Virus record (IMG/VR): IMGVR_UViG_2740892439_000006
Location: 1 to 53,794 of that record
DNA: 53,794 nt
From: a virus
Taxonomy: Duplodnaviria > Heunggongvirae > Uroviricota > Caudoviricetes
Reading direction: 5' to 3' (one strand)
Each line of letters starts with the position of its first letter. Positions within the stretch are counted from its first letter, which is position 1. The notes under the pieces were generated by a model that saw only the letters and a list, made by a program, of their open reading frames with translations, ran no database searches and was not told the DNA's origin. Made by a program: the position numbers and the translations under genes. Positions 5,631 to 30,071 of this stretch are shown here, piece by piece.

Positions 5631-6108
5631 TACTCACCTCCTTTGGCGTCAATATTTACAGCCTGGCAAGCCTCGTTGAGCACCCAGTCAACCGCGTCTT
5701 TCCATGCTCCGGTTTCAGCTGGCGGATTCTCACACTTTACCTGTTCATAGAAGCGTACAGCCTTAACCAGTCCGTCCGGCACTGCCTGTACCATCTGCGC
5801 CCTGACCCACGCCACCCGCGACGGTTCATATGGCACATGTTGTTCCTTTTTTCTTCATGGTAATGCCCATTACTCTCGTTAAATGGCAACACCTCATACA
5901 GCCCGGCACTTCTGAAATCAGCGTGTAATTGTTCCAGTGCCGCTTCGCTGGAGGTACCGATTGATGTGAGATAATCGAAAAGATTGGCGCATAAACCATA
6001 ATTTCGAGAAAACACCCCACCTGGTTTCGCCCCATTACTCAGCCACAAATCATAAGCAATATAAAACCCGTAAAGCTGTTTTCTGATATTTTCTTTGGTT
6101 TCTTGCAT
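5630..6108 (-). CDS. hypothetical protein, frame interrupted in an A6 run near 5848
   Basis: Two overlapping ORFs (5737..6108 and 5630..5836) join into one if the A-run is A7. Confidence 0.3.
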
Positions 6109-6143
6109 TATTTATTACCGCCCTTTCGGGCGGCCTCCTGACA

Positions 6144-6356
6144 TTAATCGTTGTGATAACTCATAGCTTCATTTGCAGCATCAACTGGATCAACATCCCA
6201 CCAGCAATAATTTGGGTCGGCTCCTTCAGGTGTCCACGGCTCTAATTCATTTTTTGCCGCATTCTCGTCGCCAGTAATTTTAAAAATCTGCTCAGAAAAT
6301 TTCCTCACCCACTCGTTATATTTTTCCGCATTAATGGTTTTCTGTGTATTTAACAT
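6144..6356 (-). CDS. hypothetical protein
   Basis: 70 aa ORF in leftward operon. Confidence 0.4.
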   Translation of the reverse strand: MLNTQKTINAEKYNEWVRKFSEQIFKITGDENAAKNELEPWTPEGADPNYCWWDVDPVDAANEAMSYHND

Positions 6357-6406
6357 AGATATACCTCCAGTTAATGATTTGATTTTATTTACAGTGCTAA
6401 ATTTAT

Positions 6407-6763
6407 TTATTCAGTTCTGGGTTTTGTCGCCCTGCGTATCCGCGCTTTCGCGTTACGCTCAATCTGAATTAACTTTTCTATATTTTTCCGTCTTTCCTGT
6501 TCCTCCTGGCGCAATAGCCTTACATCATCTGCCAGTCTGGTTTCTCTTTTCGCCACAGAGAGCATCCAGTCAAACGGCTCCACAACTGCACCGCAGATTT
6601 TACAGCGGACCTGACGCTCTTTTTCGTCAACCCGGACAGAAGCGTGATGGCAGTATGGTCTTTCCGATGGCTCATAAAGAAAATTAACCTGATCACGTGG
6701 GTCATCCTCCTTTACCGGAAATAAAACAATATTACTTAACTCATCTTCTGGTTTTATTTGCAT
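6407..6763 (-). CDS. hypothetical Cys/His-containing protein
   Basis: 118 aa from MQIKPEDE; RBS aaggagaggag; CHH...C.IC motif. Confidence 0.4.
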   Translation of the reverse strand: MQIKPEDELSNIVLFPVKEDDPRDQVNFLYEPSERPYCHHASVRVDEKERQVRCKICGAVVEPFDWMLSVAKRETRLADDVRLLRQEEQERRKNIEKLIQIERNAKARIRRATKPRTE

Positions 6764-7241
6764 GCTCCTCTCCTTTGATGCGAATGCCAGCGGCGCGTGG
6801 CACATTAACTTCCACGATGCGCACAGTTGGTTTGTACATCTCAATCGCTGTCAGCCAGTCAGCTCCTGTCATGCGCTTTTCCGCATCGCCATTAGTCCAC
6901 TGAACCGGTACACCAATAGCCTTCATCGCAATTTCTATTTCCCCGGCAATGGCGCTTTTCCCGCAACCAGTAAAACCAGAGACAACGACAAGAACTTCGC
7001 CTTTGGCTGGTTTTATTTCCCGCGCCTCCACCTCTGCAATTCGGCACATAGCATCGATATTTGTGTCTTCCAGGCGTTTAACTTCATCCAATAATGCCAA
7101 CGCGATATCTGGCGAAAAGTGCTTCATAAAATCGTTAAGCGCATTAATTCGCTGATCGAAAGGCATTACAGGCGCTTCACCAGCAATTTTTGTTTTTTCA
7201 GCAATTTCACGAAGCTTTTGATAGTCAATTTTGTTTGTCAT
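6741..7241 (-). CDS. P-loop (Walker A) containing phage protein
   Basis: 166 aa; GFTGCGKS motif. Confidence 0.45.
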   Translation of the reverse strand: MTNKIDYQKLREIAEKTKIAGEAPVMPFDQRINALNDFMKHFSPDIALALLDEVKRLEDTNIDAMCRIAEVEAREIKPAKGEVLVVVSGFTGCGKSAIAGEIEIAMKAIGVPVQWTNGDAEKRMTGADWLTAIEMYKPTVRIVEVNVPRAAGIRIKGEEHANKTRR

Positions 7242-14719: not shown

Positions 14720-14821
14720 AATACTGACTGTTGCGCCCTGGCATTATCGTGGGGTATATTTCTACGGCACCTTAGAAAAACGGGTGCCGGGATTGAGACC
14801 CCGGATAATGCAAAAGGCGAC

Positions 14822-14848
14822 ACAGACGCCGAAAGCGTCTTTTTTTGT
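14822..14848 (+). terminator. rho-independent terminator
   Basis: stem agacgc/gcgtct, loop cgaaa, followed by T7. Confidence 0.6.
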
Positions 14849-14895
14849 GTCATGCCATCGCACAGCCATACGTAGCGTATAGCTCCAAGATCAAT

Positions 14896-14971
14896 GGTAG
14901 TGCTGGCTGGGCTGCCGAAAGGCAGGCCGGTTCCCTTTTGCGCCGGTAGTCTCAACCCAGCCAGTGCTACC
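14896..14971 (+). ncRNA. candidate structured RNA (c4-like antisense RNA position)
   Basis: 16-bp stem ggtagtgctggctggg/cccagccagtgctacc enclosing hairpin ctgcc-gaaa-ggcag, about 60 bp upstream of small ORF plus antirepressor. Confidence 0.3.
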
Positions 14972-15031
14972 GCCATTGAGATTGAGACCTCACGCGGTAG
15001 CTCCTTAAATTAGCAAAAGGAGGCTGCCAAT

Positions 15032-15247
15032 ATGGCTACTATCCCTACCCCAACTCATTCTGAATTTATCTGGCGTTTCTATTCCTGCCAAAAGCACCTG
15101 TATATCTGCGTCATGGCTGCTACCGAATCAGAGGCGCGCTCATACCTTCCCGAAGAACCCTGCATTTTTGCTGCTCGCTTCACTCTTGATGCGATGGAGA
15201 TCCTCAATTACTGGAATCTGCCGATGAACTGCGTGGAGGTGCACTGA
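15032..15247 (+). CDS. small protein in Icd-like position
   Basis: 71 aa; RBS aaaggagg; stop overlaps ATG of antirepressor-like gene. Confidence 0.45.
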   Translation: MATIPTPTHSEFIWRFYSCQKHLYICVMAATESEARSYLPEEPCIFAARFTLDAMEILNYWNLPMNCVEVH

Positions 15248-16173
15248 TGAATCTGTCCATCTCTCAAAAAGCGACAATGACAAGTATTGAGATCGCGGAG
15301 CTGGTGGGTAAGCGTCCTGACAACGTTAAACGCACCATTGAACACCTAGCGGAACGGGGCGTAATAACTTTTCCTCAAATTGAGGAAAAGCCCACCGCAG
15401 GCCGCCCGGCGAGCTATTACGTCTTCGAAGGCGAACAAGGCAAGCGCGATAGTATTATCGTCGTCGCGCAGCTCTCTCCCGAATTCACCGCCCGGCTGGT
15501 GGACCGCTGGCGCGAACTGGAGAGTGCCAAAGTACAGTTAAAATCAAAAGCCGAAATCCTAGCTGAAATGGCGCAAATGCATCTTGAGCATGAACGCCGG
15601 ATCAACGCCGTAAATGCCCAGGTAGCCGAGGTATCAGCACAAGTATCGATGGTCGCTGAAACACTCGAGCAAATAAAGAAAGGCAATATTCCGGAAGGCT
15701 ACATTGGCTACCGCCAGCTGGCGGCGAAATGTGGCCTGACTGAAGCCAAATGCCGAAACCTGGTCAACGCTTACCGGATTCCCACCGATACGCATGAGTT
15801 TTTAACTCCCGATGGTTTGCTTGCGCGACGCTCCATTGTGGCCCTGGCCCCCTTCCGGAAAGCCTTTAAGCAGGTGATGTCGGAGGCAGAACCACGCAAT
15901 AAACGCTGGTATCATCCAAAGATGGGGATGTTTCAGGCAATCCACCATCCTGTGCCTGAAAGTCCAAAGGCAAACCTGTCGTTGCATACCGCCAGAGAGA
16001 GGATTAAAACAGGCTATGCAATCGTATGCCGTCGAGCATCCTGGCCTGAAGGTGTATGGGTGTGGCCCGAAGGTGGATCACGAAAGCACTGGCGCACTAT
16101 CCGGGATGGGAAAATCCATGCGATTGATTTAGCTCCAGAGGATGTTGTTGCTACGGACTGGATTGTTAGTTAA
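15247..16173 (+). CDS. Rha-family antirepressor-like protein with DUF2829-like C-terminus
   Basis: N-terminal SIEIAELVGKRPDNVKRTIEHL (Rha-like); C-terminal YAIVCRRASW...DLAPEDVVATDWIV resembles the DUF2829 region of ORF 972..1649. Confidence 0.55.
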   Translation: MNLSISQKATMTSIEIAELVGKRPDNVKRTIEHLAERGVITFPQIEEKPTAGRPASYYVFEGEQGKRDSIIVVAQLSPEFTARLVDRWRELESAKVQLKSKAEILAEMAQMHLEHERRINAVNAQVAEVSAQVSMVAETLEQIKKGNIPEGYIGYRQLAAKCGLTEAKCRNLVNAYRIPTDTHEFLTPDGLLARRSIVALAPFRKAFKQVMSEAEPRNKRWYHPKMGMFQAIHHPVPESPKANLSLHTARERIKTGYAIVCRRASWPEGVWVWPEGGSRKHWRTIRDGKIHAIDLAPEDVVATDWIVS

Positions 16174-18886: not shown

Positions 18887-19214
18887 TCACATTAGTAGCT
18901 TTGTTAACTCCCTCAATACCAGGTAGAAGAGTAACAAAAATATTAACGCGAGTATTTGAGTGGTCAATGAAGCGTTCATAAACAGATCAATTAGCATTAA
19001 TAATTCGAAGATAACATCCATGTCATTCACTCCGTTTAATTTTTAATCTAATGCCAGCAAATGAAGCTGGCCCCCGCATAAAGATTAATGAAAGTCACTT
19101 GTCACCAGTGAGGGGATTTATGAACCACATCCCCCTGAACTGGTGGCCTGTCTGTTTCTCGCATTTCACACCCTGCATACAGTTTCCCCTAAGTTATGAC
19201 TGAGAGGCTTTGTT

Positions 19215-19544
19215 ATGGGCTATAGCAGACTCGACGATAGGTACATTGAAGACGATATTTTTCGTGCGCTGTTTCACCAGGAAATGATTAAGCGGGTATC
19301 GGAGTATCACTCTGATAATTTCCAGTACACGATAAAGATTGATGAAGTATATCGTTCAGACCTTGCAGCCTACCGGGCGTATGGCAATGCAGATTTACGC
19401 TGGGTATTCCGGGTGCTGGTGGGCCATGAGTCAGAAATGGAAGAAATGCCCGCAGGGACCACATTAACTCTTCCTGATGTGGCATGGCTGAGGAACAAGA
19501 TCCGTGATTACGCGAGCGCGGAACCGGAGATAGAAAATGCCTGA
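19215..19544 (+). CDS. hypothetical protein
   Basis: 109 aa; stop overlaps next start. Confidence 0.45.
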   Translation: MGYSRLDDRYIEDDIFRALFHQEMIKRVSEYHSDNFQYTIKIDEVYRSDLAAYRAYGNADLRWVFRVLVGHESEMEEMPAGTTLTLPDVAWLRNKIRDYASAEPEIENA

Positions 19545-20730
19545 TTTCCTGAAAAACCAAGACGGGCGCTATATCACTGATGGCCTGTCCTCTAAGGACT
19601 TCACACGTTTATTCGACCTTATCAGTAAAGAACAAACCCGTAAGCGCCGACAAGCTCACCGGACGCTGACGCCCGGCAGACTGAGGAACAAATCCGCCGA
19701 AGATATTCTCAAGTTGGGGAAGAAGAAAGGCGGCACATTCTTTACGCGAGACGATCTGAAAGGTTTCGAAAAGCTACGGAGTAAAACGCGCGAAAAATAT
19801 GACAGTAAGACGGCAGGCATCACATACGCCCAGCTGGTGGCATCCAGCCAGGCAATCGATATTAAGCGTGCAAATAACGCCGTGGATGACGGATCTGGTA
19901 TCAAAAGAGCTACACCCGTCTCTCTTCGCCACAATGTGATTAATATCCGCGTAGAAGCATCGGATATATCCGTCCACCAGCACCATATCGTCCGGATACG
20001 CTTTGAAGAATGGGATCAGATGGTTGATGACATCGCAGAAGACGATAAATCAGCTCTGAAAATCACTAAATCACTGTGCGCCGGGCGAGTGTCTTTCGAT
20101 TGTGACTGTGGTCGTCATCAATACTGGTATCGTTACATCGCTACTGCGGGTAACTTTGCCCTGGCCCCGCCAAAAGAATACGCCTATCCAAAAGTCCGTA
20201 ACCCTAAGCTACAAGGCGTCGCCTGTAAACACGTGATCCACTCAATGACGCGGTTACAATCCGCAAGTTGGCAAATGAGTATTGCTCGTGCACTACAAAA
20301 GGCTGCAACGCAAATTGCATTTGGTGACGATCGCCGACGTACAACCAAACACTTCTCAAAAGAAGACGAGAAGGAGTTTAATCGCAATCGTAGCAGTAAA
20401 ACGAACGTTGAAGCCGCCAAACGCGAATGGAGACTCTATCAGAAGCGCCAGGCAGCTTTAAGTACAAAACTGGCAAAGGACAACGGCAAGATCGACAAGC
20501 TACGTGACCAATTGACCAGGGCCAGAAAGTTGTCAGACGCACAGAAAAAACGGGCGGCTGCAAAAGAAGCGGCCTTGCAACGTGAGAAACAGAAAAATAA
20601 GGAACTTCAGCAACGCCTTGCCGATCAGTTCGCACTGAAGAAGCAGGCGTTCATTGATGCGCTTGTCATGGCTGGAACGCCACAAGAACAGGCTGAGAAG
20701 ATGTTTATAGAGTACGTGAAAAAAGCATAA
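19537..20730 (+). CDS. SWIM-zinc-finger-like protein with C-terminal coiled coil
   Basis: FDCDCGRH...(n)...CKHV fits CxCxnCxH; basic coiled-coil tail. Confidence 0.5.
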   Translation: MPDFLKNQDGRYITDGLSSKDFTRLFDLISKEQTRKRRQAHRTLTPGRLRNKSAEDILKLGKKKGGTFFTRDDLKGFEKLRSKTREKYDSKTAGITYAQLVASSQAIDIKRANNAVDDGSGIKRATPVSLRHNVINIRVEASDISVHQHHIVRIRFEEWDQMVDDIAEDDKSALKITKSLCAGRVSFDCDCGRHQYWYRYIATAGNFALAPPKEYAYPKVRNPKLQGVACKHVIHSMTRLQSASWQMSIARALQKAATQIAFGDDRRRTTKHFSKEDEKEFNRNRSSKTNVEAAKREWRLYQKRQAALSTKLAKDNGKIDKLRDQLTRARKLSDAQKKRAAAKEAALQREKQKNKELQQRLADQFALKKQAFIDALVMAGTPQEQAEKMFIEYVKKA

Positions 20731-20775
20731 ACCACACATAGCCTAGTAGTTTATGCTGGGCTTTCATTTTTTTGA
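20717..20775. terminator. bidirectional terminator between convergent genes
   Basis: stem agcataaac/gtttatgct flanked by A-run and T-run. Confidence 0.5.
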
Positions 20776-21492
20776 AAGATCAATTCCAGTATTATCAAAT
20801 AAACTGGAAATATCAGACACCAATTTATTAAAATGCTTGTCATCATTATAGAATGATGTGCTTTTTATAGCGACTATAAAATCACATAAATCTTGCGGAG
20901 ATTCAATGCTAACACCCTTATTTTTATATAGTTCAATAATACTGCCAACATCAGTATGCAATAGTTTTATCGCGCCACAAATTTCTCGCTGTTTCGTAGT
21001 TAGGTCATTAAGTTTATTTTCATTTTCATATAAGATTTGTTTTGAATATTTAGCATCATTGGTTGCTTGATTTAACTTTGTTTTCTTTCTTTGCAATTCT
21101 ATTCTTTTATCATAATCAGCAACTTCATCTAAATATCTTATTTCAGTGTATAATTTACTTGTTAGCTTAGATATCTTCAGTGTGAGAAAAGGAGCTAATA
21201 CAGATGCAAATACTCCATAAATAAATGGAATTACAACGTGATAAACCCACGGGGATACAATCCAATTATCAAAGAACGGGACATTACCACCAACAAAAAC
21301 AATAGATAATGTATATAGGATGTCGTCCTTTGACTTTAATATAATTAAAATATCCTTCCAGTTAATGATTAGAAAAGAAATGACAACATATGCAAAAACC
21401 TTGTTAAATATTTTATCTTTTATAATCTCAGAAAATGATTTTAGTTCTGTTTCATTTATAGACGGATTATCTTTAACTTTTTCTGACATCAT
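20764..21492 (-). CDS. membrane protein with cytoplasmic coiled coil (Abi-like candidate)
   Basis: 242 aa, very AT-rich codon usage, hydrophobic N-terminal half. Confidence 0.45.
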   Translation of the reverse strand: MMSEKVKDNPSINETELKSFSEIIKDKIFNKVFAYVVISFLIINWKDILIILKSKDDILYTLSIVFVGGNVPFFDNWIVSPWVYHVVIPFIYGVFASVLAPFLTLKISKLTSKLYTEIRYLDEVADYDKRIELQRKKTKLNQATNDAKYSKQILYENENKLNDLTTKQREICGAIKLLHTDVGSIIELYKNKGVSIESPQDLCDFIVAIKSTSFYNDDKHFNKLVSDISSLFDNTGIDLSKK

Positions 21493-21513
21493 AGCTTATC
21501 CTGATTACTTTTA

Positions 21514-21714
21514 TTATGGATAGTTAAAAGATTCAACAGGTGATGGTGGCTGAATTGGGTAATGTTTCTTCTCGTACTCCTCAATGAGAAGACTCATAAC
21601 CTCAAAGAAATCACCTTCCGGAGTATTCATTTCCGGTTCGTTATCGAACATCGGTTCGACAGCACGCAGTGCGGCCTCATAATCTTGTTCTGTACGGATA
21701 GGTTTAATGTTCAT
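21514..21714 (-). CDS. HigA-like N-terminal domain fragment (no HTH)
   Basis: 66 aa; TEQDYEAALRAVEPMF...EPEMNTPEGD resembles N-domain of two-domain HigA antitoxins. Confidence 0.4.
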   Translation of the reverse strand: MNIKPIRTEQDYEAALRAVEPMFDNEPEMNTPEGDFFEVMSLLIEEYEKKHYPIQPPSPVESFNYP

Positions 21715-21726
21715 TAATTACAAAGG

Positions 21727-21758
21727 AAAGCCCACTTGCTAAGTGGGCTTTTTGTATG
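21727..21758. terminator. terminator-like hairpin
   Basis: stem agcccactt/aagtgggct followed by ttttt. Confidence 0.35.
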
Positions 21759-21770
21759 TGTTTTACTATA

Positions 21771-22109
21771 TCAGGCTGCTTTTTTATTCAGGTTCCGCTG
21801 AGAAATAAATTTTTCAGCAGTATTGATACGACTTAACTCTTCCTGAACGCGCATATCATTTTCGACTTCCCACAGGTCTACTGCGGTCTGAAGATTAATC
21901 CAAAAATCTACAGAAGTATCGAATGCTTTTGCCAGGCGATATGCCATATCCATCGTTAGCTTACGATTATTATTAACAAGAGCACTTACGGTGTTACGAT
22001 GAACATGAAGTATTTCTGCTAACTCGTTGATCTTCAGCTCTAACGGCTCCAGGTATTCGTACAGCAGGATATCACCTACGGTCGTCGGTTTTCTGGTTGC
22101 CTGTTTCAT
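21771..22109 (-). CDS. higA: HigA-family antitoxin (XRE HTH)
   Basis: VGDILLYEYLEPLELKINELAEILHVHRNTVSALVNNNRKLTMDMAYRLAKAFDTSVDFWINLQ matches HigA family pattern. Confidence 0.7.
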   Translation of the reverse strand: MKQATRKPTTVGDILLYEYLEPLELKINELAEILHVHRNTVSALVNNNRKLTMDMAYRLAKAFDTSVDFWINLQTAVDLWEVENDMRVQEELSRINTAEKFISQRNLNKKAA

Positions 22110-22179
22110 TTTTTGCCCTTACTAGCGTGCGTATTAAGTGGACTCTGGTCAGAACCCGGTCCGTAACCGGGTATCTGTT

Positions 22180-22482
22180 TTAGTATTTGTGAGGGTCGAG
22201 ATACAAGTCCTCGGCCTTTCCGTTAACCCACTTAAAAATTAACCTATATTGCTTATTCACCCTTACTGATGAATAGCCATTTAGCTTCCCTGACAGTTCC
22301 TCATACCGATTACCTGGTGGTGATCTTAAATCCTTACAGGTAGTTGCGGCATTGATAATGTCCAACTTCCGTGACAATGTCATATGAATATCAGGAGGTA
22401 TCTTTCTATGTGGTGTTGAAAATTCAAAAAAATCATCAAGCCACGCATCCCTGAAATCCTTTATGTTAATTTTTTTGGTCAT
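22180..22482 (-). CDS. higB: HigB-family toxin (RelE/ParE superfamily)
   Basis: LRSPPGNRYEELSG...YSSVRVNKQYRLIFKW matches HigB pattern; upstream of higA. Confidence 0.7.
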   Translation of the reverse strand: MTKKINIKDFRDAWLDDFFEFSTPHRKIPPDIHMTLSRKLDIINAATTCKDLRSPPGNRYEELSGKLNGYSSVRVNKQYRLIFKWVNGKAEDLYLDPHKY

Positions 22483-22632: not shown

Positions 22633-23436
22633 TTGAGGATGCTTATGGGCCGTTTTGACGAATGGTTTGCTGACGATGCAAACCTGGCAAGTAAGGAGTC
22701 AGAACATGACAGCACGCAGAGAGAAACGCCAGCGCCGATTGAAGCGAATGCAGGAGGCGCGCCGGAACATGGCAATACAGGTTCGGATTCATTCAGCATT
22801 CTGGAAGAGCAACCCGCCGCCAAAGCTGATAGCCATGATAATTTTGCTGATAGCAACGGTGGCCTTACTCCGGATGCTGGCGAATCAGATATAGCCATAC
22901 TTCCATCTTCCCTGGCTGGCAGAGAACCGACTCCACAGTTAAAAGCACGCTATAACGGGCATAAAGCCTTTAACGACCAAATCCGCGCAGACTGGATGCT
23001 GATTATTGAATCCAGCCCAGACGCGTTTCAGGCTCTCTTATATCGACCAGATGTTGGCACATATGGGGTAGTCAGCGACGAAACAGGAGAAGAGTCATTC
23101 ACTGAACTGGATAACAACCAACGCGAACTGACTTACCAGGAACCTGAAATCGTTTATGTGCTGGATAACCCTGACGGGCGTGACTCTTTCCATGCGATTG
23201 ACGCAGACGGTGAGCAGGATGGCTTAACCGATGATGTTCTGATTCTGCGTATTGCAGCAAATAACGTCCCCGTCGGCTCAATTCTTGAATGGAATGAAGA
23301 GATGGTAAACGGCGTAGCGCGCCGCTGGTGGTACGTGCACCGTATTTTTAGCTACGGCACACAGCATGTTGGTTCGCTTTACTACTGCATACCTGCCAGG
23401 AATTTTGATACGACTCAAAACGGAGTGATCGAATGA
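22633..23436 (+). CDS. hypothetical acidic protein (start uncertain)
   Basis: 267 aa track ORF; 3-prime end coupled to next gene (ATGA); N-terminal part overlaps an SD-preceded small ORF in another frame. Confidence 0.35.
   Translation: MRMLMGRFDEWFADDANLASKESEHDSTQRETPAPIEANAGGAPEHGNTGSDSFSILEEQPAAKADSHDNFADSNGGLTPDAGESDIAILPSSLAGREPTPQLKARYNGHKAFNDQIRADWMLIIESSPDAFQALLYRPDVGTYGVVSDETGEESFTELDNNQRELTYQEPEIVYVLDNPDGRDSFHAIDADGEQDGLTDDVLILRIAANNVPVGSILEWNEEMVNGVARRWWYVHRIFSYGTQHVGSLYYCIPARNFDTTQNGVIE
22706..22894 (+). CDS. small basic protein with C-terminal transmembrane helix
   Basis: Strong RBS taaggag 7 nt upstream of ATG; 62 aa, R/K-rich N-terminus then hydrophobic stretch. Confidence 0.35.
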   Translation: MTARREKRQRRLKRMQEARRNMAIQVRIHSAFWKSNPPPKLIAMIILLIATVALLRMLANQI

Positions 23437-24200
23437 CTTCAAATAAAACCCTCCTGGCGCGAACAGGTGAATGGCAAACCTCACGCACAGGAAAATTCCA
23501 GACCACGGGCTTTGAAAACGTGGATAACGCGTTTGCGACGCTAATCAGCAACATTTTTTCTGATATCTTACTGGTGGCCCCCGCGCCGGAAGAAAAACGC
23601 TTTGCGTCATTCCTGAATCGTCCACCAGCAGAGCGTGTCTATGTGGCCCGTTTCGACAATGCGATCGAGTTTCTTAAAGCAGTTCGTCGCGCAAATGCCG
23701 GGCAAGGGAGAAAACCTGAAAACCAGAACATTAACCGGGATGCTCTCCCCCTGGTCAATATCTCACGCACTATGGATATCAATTATATCAACGATGATCA
23801 GCAGATTGACCGCAAAAAAGTAGCCAGTTTTTGCGAACCGGATACCGGAATGCCTTTAGCAGAACTGGAATACACCCAGGCCATTCTGACGTATGACGTT
23901 ACGTTAATGGCAACTGATAAAGCGACCATGAGTCTGATGTGTAATTCGCTGGGCGCACGCCTTCGCCTGATGACAGGTACACAATTTGAAGCAACCACTC
24001 ACCTTGTTCGTGTCCCGGTCCCGCTGATTTGCTCGATACAGGATTCCAAAGAAGTCGGCTTTACGGATGTTTCAGCACCAATTGGAGAAGAGCGTATTTA
24101 TGCCACACAAGCGCCGATAAGTGTGATTGCAGACGTGATCACAGCATGGGAGTTGGACGCAAAACGTATTATTACCGAAACCTCGATATCTATGGGGTGA
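23433..24200 (+). CDS. putative tail/baseplate structural protein
   Basis: 255 aa; translationally coupled series leading to spike-like gene. Confidence 0.4.
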   Translation: MTSNKTLLARTGEWQTSRTGKFQTTGFENVDNAFATLISNIFSDILLVAPAPEEKRFASFLNRPPAERVYVARFDNAIEFLKAVRRANAGQGRKPENQNINRDALPLVNISRTMDINYINDDQQIDRKKVASFCEPDTGMPLAELEYTQAILTYDVTLMATDKATMSLMCNSLGARLRLMTGTQFEATTHLVRVPVPLICSIQDSKEVGFTDVSAPIGEERIYATQAPISVIADVITAWELDAKRIITETSISMG

Positions 24201-24203
24201 TAA

Positions 24204-25184
24204 GTGGCCCAGGAGTTACAACAATATTTTCTACAGTCAGTGCTCATTAACGATAACAAAGTGCCACGAGACTGGATTTTTACCGCAGTATATGTAGAAA
24301 AAACCAGCCTCAAAGCCCCTTTGCTAAAACTGGAAATTCATGACGCTACCGGCACCGTAATTGATGACTGGAAAGCCAAATACGGTGCATCGCTGGTGGC
24401 TGAAATGGGCGATCCAAACGGTAATGCAGGCACTTTTAAAACAGATTTCTTTGTTACGTCTGCAATGCTGGCTGGTGATGTTGTTACCGTTATTGCTGTC
24501 AGTGAAGACGTGCGCAGGTTTAAGATCCCCTCCCCGCGCACAAATTTACATACCAACAAAACACCAGACGCTATATTCAAGGCATATTCCGGCAAGCTTA
24601 AAATTACCAGCAGCGTGCTAAAACGCGCAGTTACATATCATCTGAATGCCGGTGACAAACCGTCAAAAATGCTTTCGGAGATAGCGCGAGACAAAGGTGC
24701 ATTATGTTGGGTATGCCGGGGGGAATTTAACTTTTACACCCTGGCTGATCTGATGAAGCAAACGCCATCATTTACCTACGAGGGGAATAACCCTAAAGCA
24801 GAATACACTTTGTCCAAAATGCGCCTACTCCAACAGGAACATGCGACAACAGCAAAGAATCAATATCGTTTTGTTGGGTATTCCATGACCGATGGCTACG
24901 TCGAATATGGCGATAGCTCACTCCCAGTGCGTTATATATCCGACTCTGATATGGAAACTCTTCGCAATATGCAGCTGTCTCTCGTCCCCAAAATGGATAT
25001 AGAAGTCGCAGGCAATCCTGATATAAAACCGGGGATGGTGATAGAGATTATCGTATACCGCTATGACCAGGAAAACCGCATTGATGAATCAATGCCCCGT
25101 AAGCTGATAGTAAAAAATGTTGCGCACTTTGAAGACCGCGTAGGCTACACAACACGAATGATATTGGGAGTGCCGAACAAATGA
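24204..25184 (+). CDS. putative baseplate structural protein
   Basis: 326 aa; GTG start after upstream stop; coupled to next gene. Confidence 0.4.
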   Translation: MAQELQQYFLQSVLINDNKVPRDWIFTAVYVEKTSLKAPLLKLEIHDATGTVIDDWKAKYGASLVAEMGDPNGNAGTFKTDFFVTSAMLAGDVVTVIAVSEDVRRFKIPSPRTNLHTNKTPDAIFKAYSGKLKITSSVLKRAVTYHLNAGDKPSKMLSEIARDKGALCWVCRGEFNFYTLADLMKQTPSFTYEGNNPKAEYTLSKMRLLQQEHATTAKNQYRFVGYSMTDGYVEYGDSSLPVRYISDSDMETLRNMQLSLVPKMDIEVAGNPDIKPGMVIEIIVYRYDQENRIDESMPRKLIVKNVAHFEDRVGYTTRMILGVPNK

Positions 25185-25834
25185 AGCGTAGAGCGCAAAT
25201 TGTTGGAACTGTGCACCCGGCAGGGCTTATGCGTGCTCAAGTCCGTGTTTTACCTGACTGGAATGGCGTTCCTGATGACGATCTACCCTGGGCGGAATAC
25301 CTGTTACCCATCGGAAACGCTTTTGTACCCACAGTCAAAGGTGACCTGGTCTGGGTAGAGTTTCCTTATTTAGATGTTAACGGTCGAATAGACACCAGAC
25401 GCCCAATGATAGTTGGTGCCGCTCAGGATGCACCGGGAGGAATTCCAAACGTTGCACCAGAAGCATCTGGCAAAGGCAACGGCTGGACGCCGCCGGAAGT
25501 AGATGGAGCACCTCCCCGCCCCCAAATCTCAGCAACGAAAGACTTCGTTATTCACCGCAACAATATTCTTGAAGTACGAACTGCTGGTGGCGGCTATGAA
25601 ATTGCCAATACGGCAGCAGGCTCAAGGATTGGCATGAATGAGTCCGGGCAGATATATATCATTGGTCCGGCTGATGTAATCGTGAATGCAGGAGGGAGTG
25701 TTAACGTCAAATCAGCCAACAACATCAATGTTAAAGGGGAAAATATTGCTGTCACCGCTAACGGAGACATAGCTTTCAAGGCAGGAGGAACCTTTCAGGC
25801 CACTGCTAGCAACTTCGATTTCAAGAAAGGATAG
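25181..25834 (+). CDS. baseplate spike / gpV-like protein
   Basis: N-terminal OB-like region (GTVHPAG..AQVRV...GDLVWVEFP) and C-terminal Gly/Asn-rich beta-helix-like repeats. Confidence 0.5.
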   Translation: MKRRAQIVGTVHPAGLMRAQVRVLPDWNGVPDDDLPWAEYLLPIGNAFVPTVKGDLVWVEFPYLDVNGRIDTRRPMIVGAAQDAPGGIPNVAPEASGKGNGWTPPEVDGAPPRPQISATKDFVIHRNNILEVRTAGGGYEIANTAAGSRIGMNESGQIYIIGPADVIVNAGGSVNVKSANNINVKGENIAVTANGDIAFKAGGTFQATASNFDFKKG

Positions 25835-28409: not shown

Positions 28410-30071
28410 TTAACCTAACTTCGCCCAGGTATCACGCAGCCCAACGGTGCGGTTAAATACCGGTTTTTCCGCCGTGGAATGGCGGCTGTCGAGGCAGAAA
28501 TAACCTTCACGCTCAAACTGGAATGCTTTACCCGCTACCGCGTCTTTCAGCGACGGTTCAGCAAAACCCTGTTTGATCACCAGCGATTCCGGGTTAATCA
28601 CCGACAGGAAATCATCCGCAGCACCTGGGTTCGGCACGCTGAACAGACGATCGTACAGGCGGATTTCAACCGGCAGCGCATGTGCCGCGCTCACCCAGTG
28701 AATAACGCCTTTCACTTTACGACCATCTGCCGGATCTTTGCTTAAGGTGTCGGCGTCATAAGTACAGAAGATGGTGGTGATATTGCCTTCGGCATCTTTC
28801 TCCACGCGTTCAGCCTTAATGACGTAAGCATTACGCAGACGCACTTCTTTACCCAGCACCAGACGTTTGTACTGCTTGTTAGCTTCTTCGCGGAAATCGG
28901 CGCGGTCGATCCAAATCTCACCGCTAAACGGCACCTGACGGCTACCCATTTCCGGTTTGTTTGGATGGTTCGGCATGGTGACCATTTCGCCTTCGCCCTG
29001 GTAGTTTTCGATAACCAGTTTCACCGGATCGATAACCGCCATTGCGCGCGGGGCATTTTCGTTGAGATCTTCACGGATGCAGGATTCCAGCGACGCCATT
29101 TCAATGGTGTTGTCCTGCTTGGTCACGCCGATGCGTTTGCAGAACTCACGAATAGAAGCCGCAGTGTAACCACGACGACGCAGACCGGAAATGGTCGGCA
29201 TACGCGGGTCATCCCAGCCTTCAACGTGCTTGTCGGTCACCAGCAGGTTCAGCTTACGCTTGGACATCACAGTGTATTCCAGATTCAGGCGCGAGAATTC
29301 GTACTGGCGCGGGTGAACAGGAATGGTGATGTTGTCCAGTACCCAGTCATACAGACGACGGTTGTCCTGGAACTCAAGCGTACACAGAGAGTGCGTAATA
29401 CCTTCCAGCGCATCGCTGATGCAGTGGGTAAAGTCGTACATCGGGTAGATGCACCACTTGTTACCAGTCTGGTGGTGTTCAGCAAATTTAATGCGGTACA
29501 GCACCGGATCGCGCATTACGATAAATGGCGACGCCATGTCGATTTTCGCACGCAGGCAGGCTTTACCTTCTTCAAAACCACCGGCACGCATTTTTTCGAA
29601 CAGCGCCAGGTTCTCTTCAACGCTGCGGTCGCGGTACGGGCTGTTTTTACCCGGCTGCGTCAGGGTGCCACGATATTCGCGGATCTGTTCCGGCGTCAGT
29701 TCATCAACGTACGCCAGGCCTTTATTGATCAGTTCAACAGCATAGGCATGGAGTTTGTCAAAATAATCGGAGGAGTAACGGATGTTGCCAGACCAGTGAA
29801 AACCTAACCATTCAACGTCGTTTTTAATCGACTCGACGTACTCGATATCTTCTTTTACCGGGTTAGTGTCGTCGAAACGCAGGTTGCACTGGCCTTTATA
29901 GTCCTGGGCGATCCCGAAGTTCAGGCAGATAGATTTCGCATGACCAATATGCAGATAGCCATTCGGTTCCGGCGGGAAACGGGTATGTACTGTGGTGTGC
30001 TTACCACTGGCCAGATCTTCATCGATGATCTGACGAATAAAGTTAGTCGGGCGGGCTTCTGCCTCACTCAT
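28410..30071 (-). CDS. glnS: glutaminyl-tRNA synthetase
   Basis: 553 aa; N-terminus [24 protein letters not shown] and HIGH-type motif region match E. coli GlnS as recalled; extreme C-terminus reads ...DTWAKLG. Confidence 0.95.

What the first reader, a model, noticed from the sequence alone, without database searches (positions are those of the whole stretch)
19215..20730. Two-gene operon encoding a SWIM-zinc-finger protein with basic coiled-coil tail
A 109-aa ORF overlaps the start of a 397-aa ORF containing FDCDCGRH...CKHV (CxCxnCxH) followed by a long Lys/Arg/Ala/Gln-rich coiled coil. SWIM fingers occur in nucleic-acid-handling proteins; the function here is unknown and it may be a novel regulatory or defence component.
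Basis: seen in the sequence. Interest (0 to 1): 0.5.

Follow-up and report, generated by a model that had tools for sequence, protein, structure and literature searches.

The report
Phage P1-type tail genes 26 and 25
The two genes are the counterparts of bacteriophage P1 tail-assembly genes 26 and 25, so they are ordinary phage morphogenesis genes, not a defence or regulatory system. The larger protein's mechanism is still unknown, and it does carry an invariant zinc-finger-like motif that I found no published mention of.

Summary
The ORFs and the motif are real. ORF 19215-19544 (109 aa) overlaps ORF 19537-20730 (397 aa) by 8 nt. The large protein has C189-x-C191 ... C230-x-H232, followed by a basic helical tail.

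The window is a P1-family phage-plasmid, 94.5% identical in DNA to Escherichia phage D6.
- **Small ORF:** it matches P1 gp26, the T4 gp53-like baseplate "plug" that has been built into P1 cryo-EM maps.
- **Large ORF:** it matches P1 gp25 ("tail stability"; phrog_1722, E 5e-196). P1 gene 25 is defined by amber mutants. gp25 gave only two peptides in virion proteomics and is not named in either P1 cryo-EM report, and HHpred gave it no role.

The SWIM reading is partly supported.
- The four ligand residues are invariant down to 22% identity.
- Pfam SWIM stays below threshold, and the spacer (38 residues) is unusually long.

The 26-25 pair is adjacent in most lineages across many bacterial orders, and nearly always sits among tail and baseplate genes.

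My best reading (inferred) is a zinc-stabilised, sub-stoichiometric baseplate/tail assembly factor. The defence or regulator reading is not supported. These are known genes with a modest new structural annotation.

The parts
19092..19100 (.). Perfect 9-bp palindrome AAGTCACTT, resembling the -22 box of the P1 late promoters LP26/LPpmgL. Its role here is uncertain.
   Evidence: In P1 the -22 box AAATGACTA followed by TAGAAT is annotated upstream of gene 26. In the window only the leftward orientation has a usable -10 (AGTGACTT-TCAT-TAATCT, 19082-19099). The motif alone is not enriched.
19215..19544 (+). Gene 26 homologue: 109-aa T4 gp53-like baseplate 'plug' protein
   Evidence: phmmer to PDB 9ay5_S/9vzk 'Gp26', E 1e-16. 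phrog_1269 baseplate wedge subunit, E 2.3e-36. D6 annotation 'similar to P1 gene 26'. Placed as a six-fold plug between wedge and hub in P1 (PMC12810830).
19526..19544 (+). Translational-coupling junction: GGAG (19526-19529), ATG of gene 25 (19537), TGA of gene 26 (19542-19544), 8-nt overlap
   Evidence: Read directly from the sequence. The same -8 spacing is the commonest in related loci (63 loci). Spacings of +1, -1, +9 and -4 come next.
19537..20730 (+). Gene 25 homologue: 397-aa basic protein (pI 10.0) annotated 'tail stability' in P1
   Evidence: tblastn to P1 gene 25: 56.7% identity, E 4e-112; D6: 98.2%. phrog_1722 E 5e-196. 714 cluster representatives with E <= 1e-3, lengths mostly 330-450 aa among the 150 listed. 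pI and charge.
19798..20406 (+). Globular core of gp25 (aa 88-290): three-stranded sheet plus helices that carry the zinc motif
20101..20232 (+). SWIM-like ligand set C189-x-C191 ... C230-x-H232, with a 38-residue spacer containing the near-invariant loop E214..P218-K219..N222-P223..G227
   Evidence: Invariant columns in A1 and A2. Sub-threshold Pfam PF04434 matches on this stretch in homologues.
20392..20670 (+). Basic Lys/Arg/Ala/Gln-rich long helix (aa 286-378)
   Evidence: Predicted helices 291-314 and 316-378. 25 K+R against 11 D+E. The tail is net positive in 23 of 24 distant homologues although its sequence is not conserved.
20671..20727 (+). Short C-terminal helix (aa 379-397) with conserved G380 and A386
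   Evidence: Invariant G380 and A386 and near-invariant F372 in the P1-like set. Helix 383-396 in the model.
20740..20772 (+). Terminator-like hairpin and T-run ending the 26-25 unit
   Evidence: Consensus scan hit AGCCTAGTAGTTTATGCTGGGCT followed by TTCATTTTTT. The region folds with z = -3.2.
20764..22482 (-). Opposite-strand insertion that separates gene 25 from gene 7. It holds a 242-aa protein of unknown function, a 66-aa regulator-like ORF and a HigA/HigB-like antitoxin/toxin pair.
   Evidence: phrog_8191. phrog_10398, phrog_1381 'plasmid antitoxin with HTH domain' and phrog_3066 'toxin of TA system'. D6 has the same arrangement. In P1, gene 7 follows gene 25 directly.
22633..25834 (+). 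Remainder of the ancestral operon: homologues of P1 genes 7 (stopper), 24 (tail terminator), 6 (hub) and 5 (spike)
   Evidence: phrog_1906, phrog_1767, phrog_1390 and phrog_430. PDB 9ums_B 'Gp7', E 6e-43. Roles taken from PMC12810830.

Best explanation
The locus is the gene 26 - gene 25 pair of a P1-family (D6-like) phage-plasmid.

gp26 is the small plug that glues the baseplate wedges to the central hub. This is shown by homology to a protein placed in cryo-EM maps.

gp25 is a conserved accessory morphogenesis protein. This is shown by homology, by gene context and by the P1 annotation.

The proposed mechanism is inferred:
1. A structural zinc ion held by C189/C191/C230/H232 rigidifies a SWIM-like module.
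2. The near-invariant loop of that module (E214...PK(I/V)RNP...G227) docks on a baseplate or tube-initiation partner. gp26 and the hub/tube-initiator complex are the leading candidates.
3. The long basic helix reaches an acidic surface such as the tube lumen or the tape-measure complex.
4. The protein acts in small amounts during baseplate/tail assembly or stabilisation and is largely absent from, or disordered in, the finished virion.

Loss would give unstable tails.
For: Identity of the element:
- 94.5% DNA identity to phage D6, and about 100 E. coli plasmids carry the region.
- D6 and P1 annotations name genes 26 and 25.
- gp26 matches PDB Gp26.
- gp25 matches P1 gene 25 and phrog_1722.

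Tail association:
- A gp26-like ORF lies directly upstream of the gp25-like ORF in 221 of 239 viral loci.
- It does so in about 36 of 44 clusters at 60% identity, and in 65 of 78 loci in the one-genome-per-species collection.
- Five of the twelve exceptions were given family scans or carry jackhmmer-labelled neighbours. Four of them sit beside tape-measure, tube-like, PmgG-like, hub or spike genes. The fifth (a Desulfosarcina prophage) has an antirepressor directly upstream and helicase/primase genes, with a PmgG-like gene about 1.8 kb away.

Accessory rather than bulk structural role:
- P1 gp25 gave 2 peptides (8.4% coverage) in virions, and HHpred found no match above 50% (PMC9024508).
- No PDB chain matches gp25.

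Constraint and zinc module:
- gp25 is more conserved than gp26, gp7, gp24, gp6 and gp5 at every divergence level beyond near-identical relatives.
Against: - No direct evidence links gp25 physically to gp26 or to the hub. Adjacency to gp7 (the stopper) is almost as conserved in the P1-like clades.
- The P1 'tail stability' label is shared with gp7 (stopper) and, as 'baseplate or tail stability', with gp24 (terminator). The site of action could therefore be the neck end of the tail.
- Two peptides in purified virions leave room for a low-copy structural or ejected role.
- A pI of 10 and a SWIM-like finger would also suit nucleic-acid binding.
- I could not read the original mutant electron-microscopy paper (Walker and Walker 1983) or the P1 genome paper.
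- CRISPRi against P1 genes 25 and 26 lowered plating only about 10-fold (PMC10695390).
Confidence: 0.5

Rival explanations
1. gp25 is a genuine low-copy virion component. It would be flexible or symmetry-mismatched, for example lying in the tail-tube or neck lumen beside the tape measure or the DNA end. It would then be invisible to averaging and might be ejected with the DNA.
For: - It was detected, weakly, in purified P1 virions.
- The long basic helix (aa 291-378, about 13 nm if straight) and net charge of +34 would suit a lumen or DNA. That tube lumens are negatively charged is from my own knowledge.
- In some lineages the gene directly follows the tape-measure gene (L318, and Rb1 L004).
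- The tape measure Sit and the tripod UpfB are also unresolved in the P1 maps.
Against: - Only 2 peptides from a 45.8-kDa protein.
- It is not reported in two independent cryo-EM studies.
- No unassigned density is mentioned in PMC12810830.
Confidence: 0.25
2. gp25 is a nucleic-acid-binding regulator, using a SWIM finger plus basic arms. It would control the expression or translation of tail genes, and the tail defect would be indirect.
For: - The SWIM-like motif, and pI 10.0.
- The homologue in Xanthomonas phage Rb1/GYRb1 was annotated as an MvaT-type nucleoid regulator.
- In a Desulfosarcina prophage it sits next to an antirepressor and replication genes.
Against: - No significant match to any DNA-binding family.
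- The MvaT label has no support in Pfam scans of this protein or of 24 family representatives, where MvaT is not among the listed families. The Rb1 protein itself was not scanned.
- In the great majority of lineages the gene is embedded in, and translationally coupled to, tail structural genes.
- P1 late gene control is already assigned to Lpa (from my own knowledge).
Confidence: 0.1
3. The pair is a defence or anti-defence module carried by the plasmid-prophage.
For: The element carries accessory cargo nearby, including a toxin-antitoxin pair directly downstream. SWIM domains do occur in some nucleic-acid-handling proteins (from my own knowledge).
Against: - No PADLOC hit.
- One partner is a baseplate protein with a solved position.
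- The pair is core, not variable: it is among the 21 'extremely conserved' genes of P1-like phage-plasmids (PMC9603915).
- It is conserved with tail genes across many bacterial orders.
Confidence: 0.03

Closest known systems
Bacteriophage P1 gp25 ('tail stability protein', PHROG 1722) and its D6 orthologue (orf74)
   Same: Full-length homology: 98.2% to D6, and 56.7% over aa 1-334 to P1. The position is the same, directly after gene 26. The length and the basic helical tail are also the same.
   Different: The C-terminal tail diverges from P1 beyond about aa 334. Here the gene ends a two-gene unit, because a 1.9-kb opposite-strand cassette separates it from gene 7.
Bacteriophage P1 gp26 / T4 gp53-like baseplate plug (PDB 9ay5, 9vzk)
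   Same: The 109-aa ORF aligns over aa 4-99 with the solved P1 Gp26 chain (E 1e-16) and matches phrog_1269.
   Different: It is shorter than P1 gp26 (109 against 125 aa). Pfam Phage_gp53 and Phage_tail_X are only sub-threshold (E 0.05-0.07).
SWIM zinc finger (Pfam PF04434; e.g. ZSWIM8, Shu2)
   Same: It has the CxC...CxH ligand pattern. The CxC lies at the end of a strand and the CxH at the start of a helix. The best structural neighbour is ZSWIM8, and Shu2 is also listed.
   Different: - The spacer is 38 residues, with an extra helix and a conserved loop. Canonical SWIM domains have a much shorter spacer: the Pfam model is only 38 positions in all.
- No member reaches the Pfam cut-off.
- Foldseek finds nothing.
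- The context is phage tail assembly.
T4 baseplate-hub assembly factors gp51/gp26/gp28 (non-structural or catalytic)
   Same: This is a proposed functional analogy only: essential for tail formation, little or none retained in the virion. Gonzales et al. suggested it for the unassigned P1 proteins (PMC9024508).
   Different: No sequence or fold similarity was detected. The analogy is untested.

Membership tests
P1 gp25 family (PHROG 1722, 'tail stability protein') | Significant full-length sequence similarity to P1 gene 25 product | tested here: met
   tblastn 56.7% identity over aa 1-334, E 4e-112. phrog_1722 E 5e-196 covering aa 2-396.
P1 gp25 family (PHROG 1722, 'tail stability protein') | Position directly downstream of the gene 26 homologue, within the tail gene cluster | tested here: met
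   8-nt overlap with the gp26 homologue. The D6 and P1 maps agree. Homologues of genes 7, 24, 6 and 5 follow after a 1.9-kb insertion.
P1 gp25 family (PHROG 1722, 'tail stability protein') | Conditional-lethal tail-stability phenotype | not testable with these tools
   Known only for P1, through its annotation. The original paper is not held in the library.
P1 gp26 / T4 gp53-like baseplate plug | Sequence similarity to the P1 Gp26 chain built into baseplate maps | tested here: met
   9ay5_S/9vzk, E 1e-16, aa 4-99. phrog_1269 E 2.3e-36.
P1 gp26 / T4 gp53-like baseplate plug | Pfam Phage_gp53 (PF11246) at the gathering score | tested here: not met
   13.6 bits against a cut-off of 21, E 0.053. 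The published HHpred link of P1 gp26 to T4 gp53 is 98.9%.
SWIM zinc finger (PF04434) | CxCxnCxH ligand signature, conserved across the family | tested here: met
   C189, C191, C230 and H232 are invariant in A1 (38 sequences) and A2 (24 sequences, 22-50% identity).
SWIM zinc finger (PF04434) | Short spacer between CxC and CxH (the Pfam model is 38 positions in all; a range of roughly 6-25 residues is recalled from Makarova et al. 2002, from memory) | tested here: not met
   There are 38 residues between C191 and C230. They include helix 192-204 and a conserved loop.
SWIM zinc finger (PF04434) | Pfam model at the gathering score (19.6 bits) | tested here: not met
   The window protein has no hit at E <= 1. 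Five of 24 homologues have hits at E 0.04-1, the four inspected scoring 10.4-12.7 bits, placed on the CKH helix.
SWIM zinc finger (PF04434) | Fold similarity to a solved SWIM domain | tested here: inconclusive
SWIM zinc finger (PF04434) | Zinc binding | not testable with these tools
   This needs metal analysis of purified protein.
Parallel coiled coil | Sustained heptad repeat with hydrophobic a/d positions | tested here: inconclusive
   The best register has 44% L/I/V/M/F/Y/W (63% counting Ala) at a/d positions over aa 286-378. A long single helix is predicted. The oligomeric state is unknown.
Known anti-phage defence systems (PADLOC-DB) | Match to any defence-system protein model | tested here: not met
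   No hits at E <= 0.01 for either protein or for the two flanking proteins.

The most novel reading that the evidence does not exclude
gp25-like proteins would form a widespread, previously unrecognised class of zinc-finger (SWIM-derived) tail-assembly factors. The family has at least 714 clusters at 50% identity and spans Gamma- and Betaproteobacteria and Desulfobacterota. Such a protein would partner the gp53/gpX-like plug to lock baseplate wedges onto the hub, or alternatively act as a basic lumen protein ejected with the DNA. This would give a first mechanism to the last unplaced essential protein of the P1 tail operon.
Probability: 0.35. Interest if true: 0.45.

Novelty: already known. 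Interest (0 to 1): 0.3.

Why it matters
P1 is a workhorse of E. coli genetics, and P1-like phage-plasmids spread resistance genes. After two cryo-EM studies, gp25 is the one protein of the 26-25-7-24-6-5 tail operon without a place or a mechanism.

Three observations give concrete, cheap experiments for assigning its role:
- gp25 carries an invariant SWIM-like zinc site and a conserved loop.
- It is more conserved than its structural neighbours.
- It almost always travels with the plug gene.

For genome annotation, these results show that the label 'transcriptional regulator MvaT', given to a homologue in a recent phage genome, is probably wrong. They also show that the locus should not be counted as a candidate defence system.

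Tried and rejected
- **Foldseek of the domain model against the PDB:** no meaningful hit (best E 0.22).
- **AlphaFold-database (afdb50) fold search:** the library was not available.
- **Sequence and profile searches of the PDB with gp25 and with the domain profile A6:** only chance-level hits.
- **NCBIfam and PADLOC:** no hits.
- **Head-related role (MuF/SPP1 gp7-like):** I considered this because in Acinetobacter phage ABMM1 the pair lies between the terminase and capsid genes. I rejected it. The 512-aa neighbour is fibre-like (phrog_4545/3737) rather than a portal. Other lineages put the gene beside tape-measure, tube, PmgG-like, hub and spike genes.
- **Is the conserved downstream phrog_4597 protein a diverged gp7 stopper?** jackhmmer found no link, and hhalign gave 2.4% probability. 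Unresolved.
- **Promoter of the unit:** the P1 late-promoter -22 box is present as a palindrome at 19092-19100, but only the leftward orientation has a plausible -10. No P1-type C1 operator is in the window. Unresolved.
- **Papers not held in the library:** Lobocka 2004 and Walker and Walker 1983. The 'tail stability' phenotype is therefore cited only through annotations.

Full report
**1. The observation**

Both ORFs exist exactly as described: 19215-19544 (109 aa) and 19537-20730 (397 aa), both on the + strand.
- The ATG of the second lies 8 nt before the TGA of the first and is preceded by a GGAG.
- The large protein reads ...RVSFDCDCGRHQYW... and ...GVACKHVIH..., that is C189-x-C191 and C230-x-H232.
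- Residues 286-378 are rich in Lys/Arg (25), Ala (16) and Gln (10) out of 93 residues.
- The motif is not a chance pattern. The four putative ligands are invariant in 38 close homologues. They are also invariant in 24 representatives of 50%-identity clusters that are only 22-50% identical to the query.
- The spacer contains further invariant residues (E214, P218, N222, P223, G227).

**2. What the element is**

The 2-kb region is 94.5% identical in DNA to Escherichia phage D6. It is 80-99% identical to plasmids in 100 of 5,426 complete E. coli genomes and never matches a chromosome. The window is therefore a P1-family phage-plasmid.
- D6 annotates the two genes as 'similar to P1 gene 26' (baseplate wedge subunit) and 'similar to P1 gene 25' (tail protein).
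- The small protein matches the P1 Gp26 chain of PDB 9ay5/9vzk (E 1e-16) and phrog_1269.
- The large protein matches P1 gene 25 (56.7% identity over aa 1-334, E 4e-112) and phrog_1722 (E 5e-196).
- In P1 the two genes head the operon 26-25-7-24-6-5, behind the late promoter LP26.
- In this window, as in D6, a 1.9-kb opposite-strand cassette lies between gene 25 and gene 7. It holds a 242-aa protein of unknown function, a small regulator-like ORF and a HigA/HigB-like antitoxin/toxin pair.
- A terminator-like hairpin with a T-run follows the gene 25 stop codon. The 'two-gene operon' is thus a local consequence of that insertion.

**3. What is known about the two proteins**

- A 2026 cryo-EM study of P1 places gp26 as a six-fold 'plug' that attaches the wedges to the central hub. 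It places gp7 as the stopper, gp24 as the tail terminator, gp6 as the hub and gp5 as the spike. It states that almost all proteins from head to tail were identified, and gp25 is never mentioned (PMC12810830).
- An independent preprint likewise models gp26 but not gp25. Its two mentions of 'gp25' refer to the T4 protein.
- No PDB chain matches gp25.
- In virion proteomics, P1 gp25 met only the two-peptide threshold (8.4% coverage). HHpred gave no match above 50%. The authors suggested that such proteins might be chaperones or cofactors (PMC9024508).
- CRISPRi against P1 genes 25 and 26 reduced plating about 10-fold (PMC10695390).
- gp25 and gp26 are among 21 'extremely conserved' genes of P1-like phage-plasmids (PMC9603915).

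So gp26 has an established structural role. gp25 is an established morphogenesis gene whose mechanism is unknown.

**4. Structure and the SWIM question**

AlphaFold2 on the homologue alignment gives a confident full-length model (pLDDT 82.9, pTM 0.72) with three parts:
- an N-terminal helical region;
- a core with a three-stranded sheet, a strand ending in CxC, a helix, a long loop and a helix starting at CxH;
- two consecutive helices (291-314 and 316-378) followed by a short terminal helix.

The other evidence is weaker:
- Foldseek found nothing.
- Pfam SWIM is the most recurrent family among 24 diverse members, but always below threshold (5 of 24, best E 0.041).
- The four of those matches that I inspected fall on the right residues, the CKH helix, and one of them spans both halves.
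- The spacer is 38 residues, far longer than the 38-position Pfam model allows for.

I therefore call this a SWIM-like or SWIM-derived zinc module. The motif and the best fold match are met. The Pfam threshold and canonical spacing are not met. Zinc binding is untested.

The 'coiled coil' is a predicted long basic helix with only a moderate heptad signal. Its sequence is poorly conserved, but its positive charge is kept in 23 of 24 homologues.

**5. Distribution and context**

- A profile search of 1.84 billion cluster representatives found 714 proteins (351 at E <= 1e-10). The 150 listed are mostly 330-450 aa long.
- In viral contigs, a gp26-like ORF lies directly upstream of the gp25-like ORF in 221 of 239 loci. 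The commonest spacings are -8, +1, -1, +9 and -4 nt.
- After clustering at 60% identity, this holds in about 36 of 44 clusters, and in five more the plug gene is 0.3-3.5 kb upstream.
- In a one-genome-per-species collection it holds in 65 of 78 loci. Hosts include Enterobacterales, Vibrionales, Desulfobacterota, Acinetobacter, Pseudomonas, Burkholderiales and Nitrosomonas.
- In P1-like clades the gene is followed by the gp7, gp24, gp6 and gp5 homologues.
- I examined five of the twelve loci that lack an upstream plug gene. Four have tail genes as neighbours: tape measure then gp25-like then tube-like protein; PmgG-like then gp25-like then fibre-like then gp26-like; gp7/gp6/gp5 then gp25-like; and gp24-like and capsid genes on either side. 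The fifth, a Desulfosarcina prophage, has an antirepressor directly upstream and helicase/primase genes, with a PmgG-like gene about 1.8 kb away.
- Beyond near-identical relatives, gp25 is more conserved than the five structural proteins of its operon at every divergence level. For example, its median identity is 56.5%, against 30-50% for the others.

**6. Interpretation**

*Shown:* the locus is the P1-type gene 26-25 pair. gp26 is a baseplate plug. gp25 belongs to a large, strongly conserved, tail-associated family with an invariant Cys2-Cys-His site.

*Inferred:* gp25 is a zinc-stabilised accessory factor of baseplate/tail assembly or stabilisation. It would act in small amounts and not be retained, or not be ordered, in the virion. 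It probably works with the plug or the central hub/tube-initiation complex.

I give this about 0.5. The rivals are:
- a low-copy, flexible or ejected virion protein (0.25);
- a nucleic-acid-binding regulator (0.1);
- a defence module (0.03).

The rest is left open. The main uncertainty is where the protein acts. Its P1 label 'tail stability' is shared with the stopper, and in part with the terminator. Its linkage to gp7 is nearly as tight as its linkage to gp26 in P1-like clades, so a role at the neck end cannot be excluded.

**7. Verdict**

The SWIM idea is partly supported and appears unreported for this family: no paper in the held library links a SWIM domain to a phage tail protein. The suggestion of a novel regulatory or defence component is not supported.

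These are known, annotated phage tail genes. The added value is a structural annotation and a testable hypothesis for the one unplaced protein of the P1 tail operon. Interest is modest (0.3).

Noticed in passing
window 20764-22482 (- strand): A cassette inserted between tail genes 25 and 7, relative to P1. It holds a 242-aa protein of unknown function (phrog_8191; I did not test whether the N-terminal half is membrane-spanning), a 66-aa regulator-like ORF (phrog_10398/1373), and a HigA-like HTH antitoxin (21771-22109) with a HigB/RelE-like toxin (22180-22482). The same layout is in phage D6.
   Followed up: partly
window 14767-14977 (+): Rfam hits above gathering score: isrK Hfq-binding RNA (14767-14845, 59 bits) and C4 antisense RNA (14890-14977, 76 bits). 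They lie just upstream of an Ant-type antirepressor gene (15247-16173), matching the P1/P7 immunity region I.
   Followed up: no
window 19082-19135: A perfect palindrome AAGTCACTT (19092-19100) resembles the P1 late-promoter -22 box, but with a usable -10 only for leftward transcription. It is followed by a GGGGAT...ATCCCC hairpin (about 19112-19137) in the leader of gene 26. No P1-type C1 operator was found anywhere in the window.
   Followed up: partly
window 28410-30071 (- strand): A 553-aa ORF at the position where D6 annotates a phage-borne glutaminyl-tRNA synthetase (GlnS-like). This is unusual cargo for a P1-family element. ARAGORN found no tRNA genes in the window.
   Followed up: no
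L004 (Xanthomonas phage Rb1, PQ569993.1) 5758-6879: The gp25 homologue is annotated 'transcriptional regulator MvaT', and the accompanying paper describes it as the most conserved region shared with Acinetobacter phage ABMM1. The label is probably a mis-annotation driven by the basic helical tail.
   Followed up: partly
L003 5699-6247, L004 6884-7387 and related loci: In the ABMM1/Rb1-type clade, the gp25-like gene is always followed by a roughly 170-190-aa phrog_4597 protein of unknown function. It shares short motifs with the P1 gp7 stopper (HPNT..C.VYRK against PDAFQALLYRP), but the similarity is not significant (hhalign probability 2.4%).
   Followed up: partly
L267, L269, L270, L272 (Desulfosarcina/Desulfatitalea genomes): Here gp25-like genes lack a detectable gp26, gp7, gp24 or capsid gene within 10 kb. 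In L270, the only one of the four whose neighbours were scanned, it sits beside antirepressor, helicase/primase and PmgG-like genes. This is a rearranged prophage context that might separate gp25 function from the plug.
   Followed up: partly
PMC10695390 (P1 CRISPRi table): Knock-down of P1 genes 25 and 26 lowered plating only about 10-fold, while the downstream gene 7 scored below 1e-5. This suggests either weak guides or an internal promoter ahead of gene 7 in P1.
   Followed up: no
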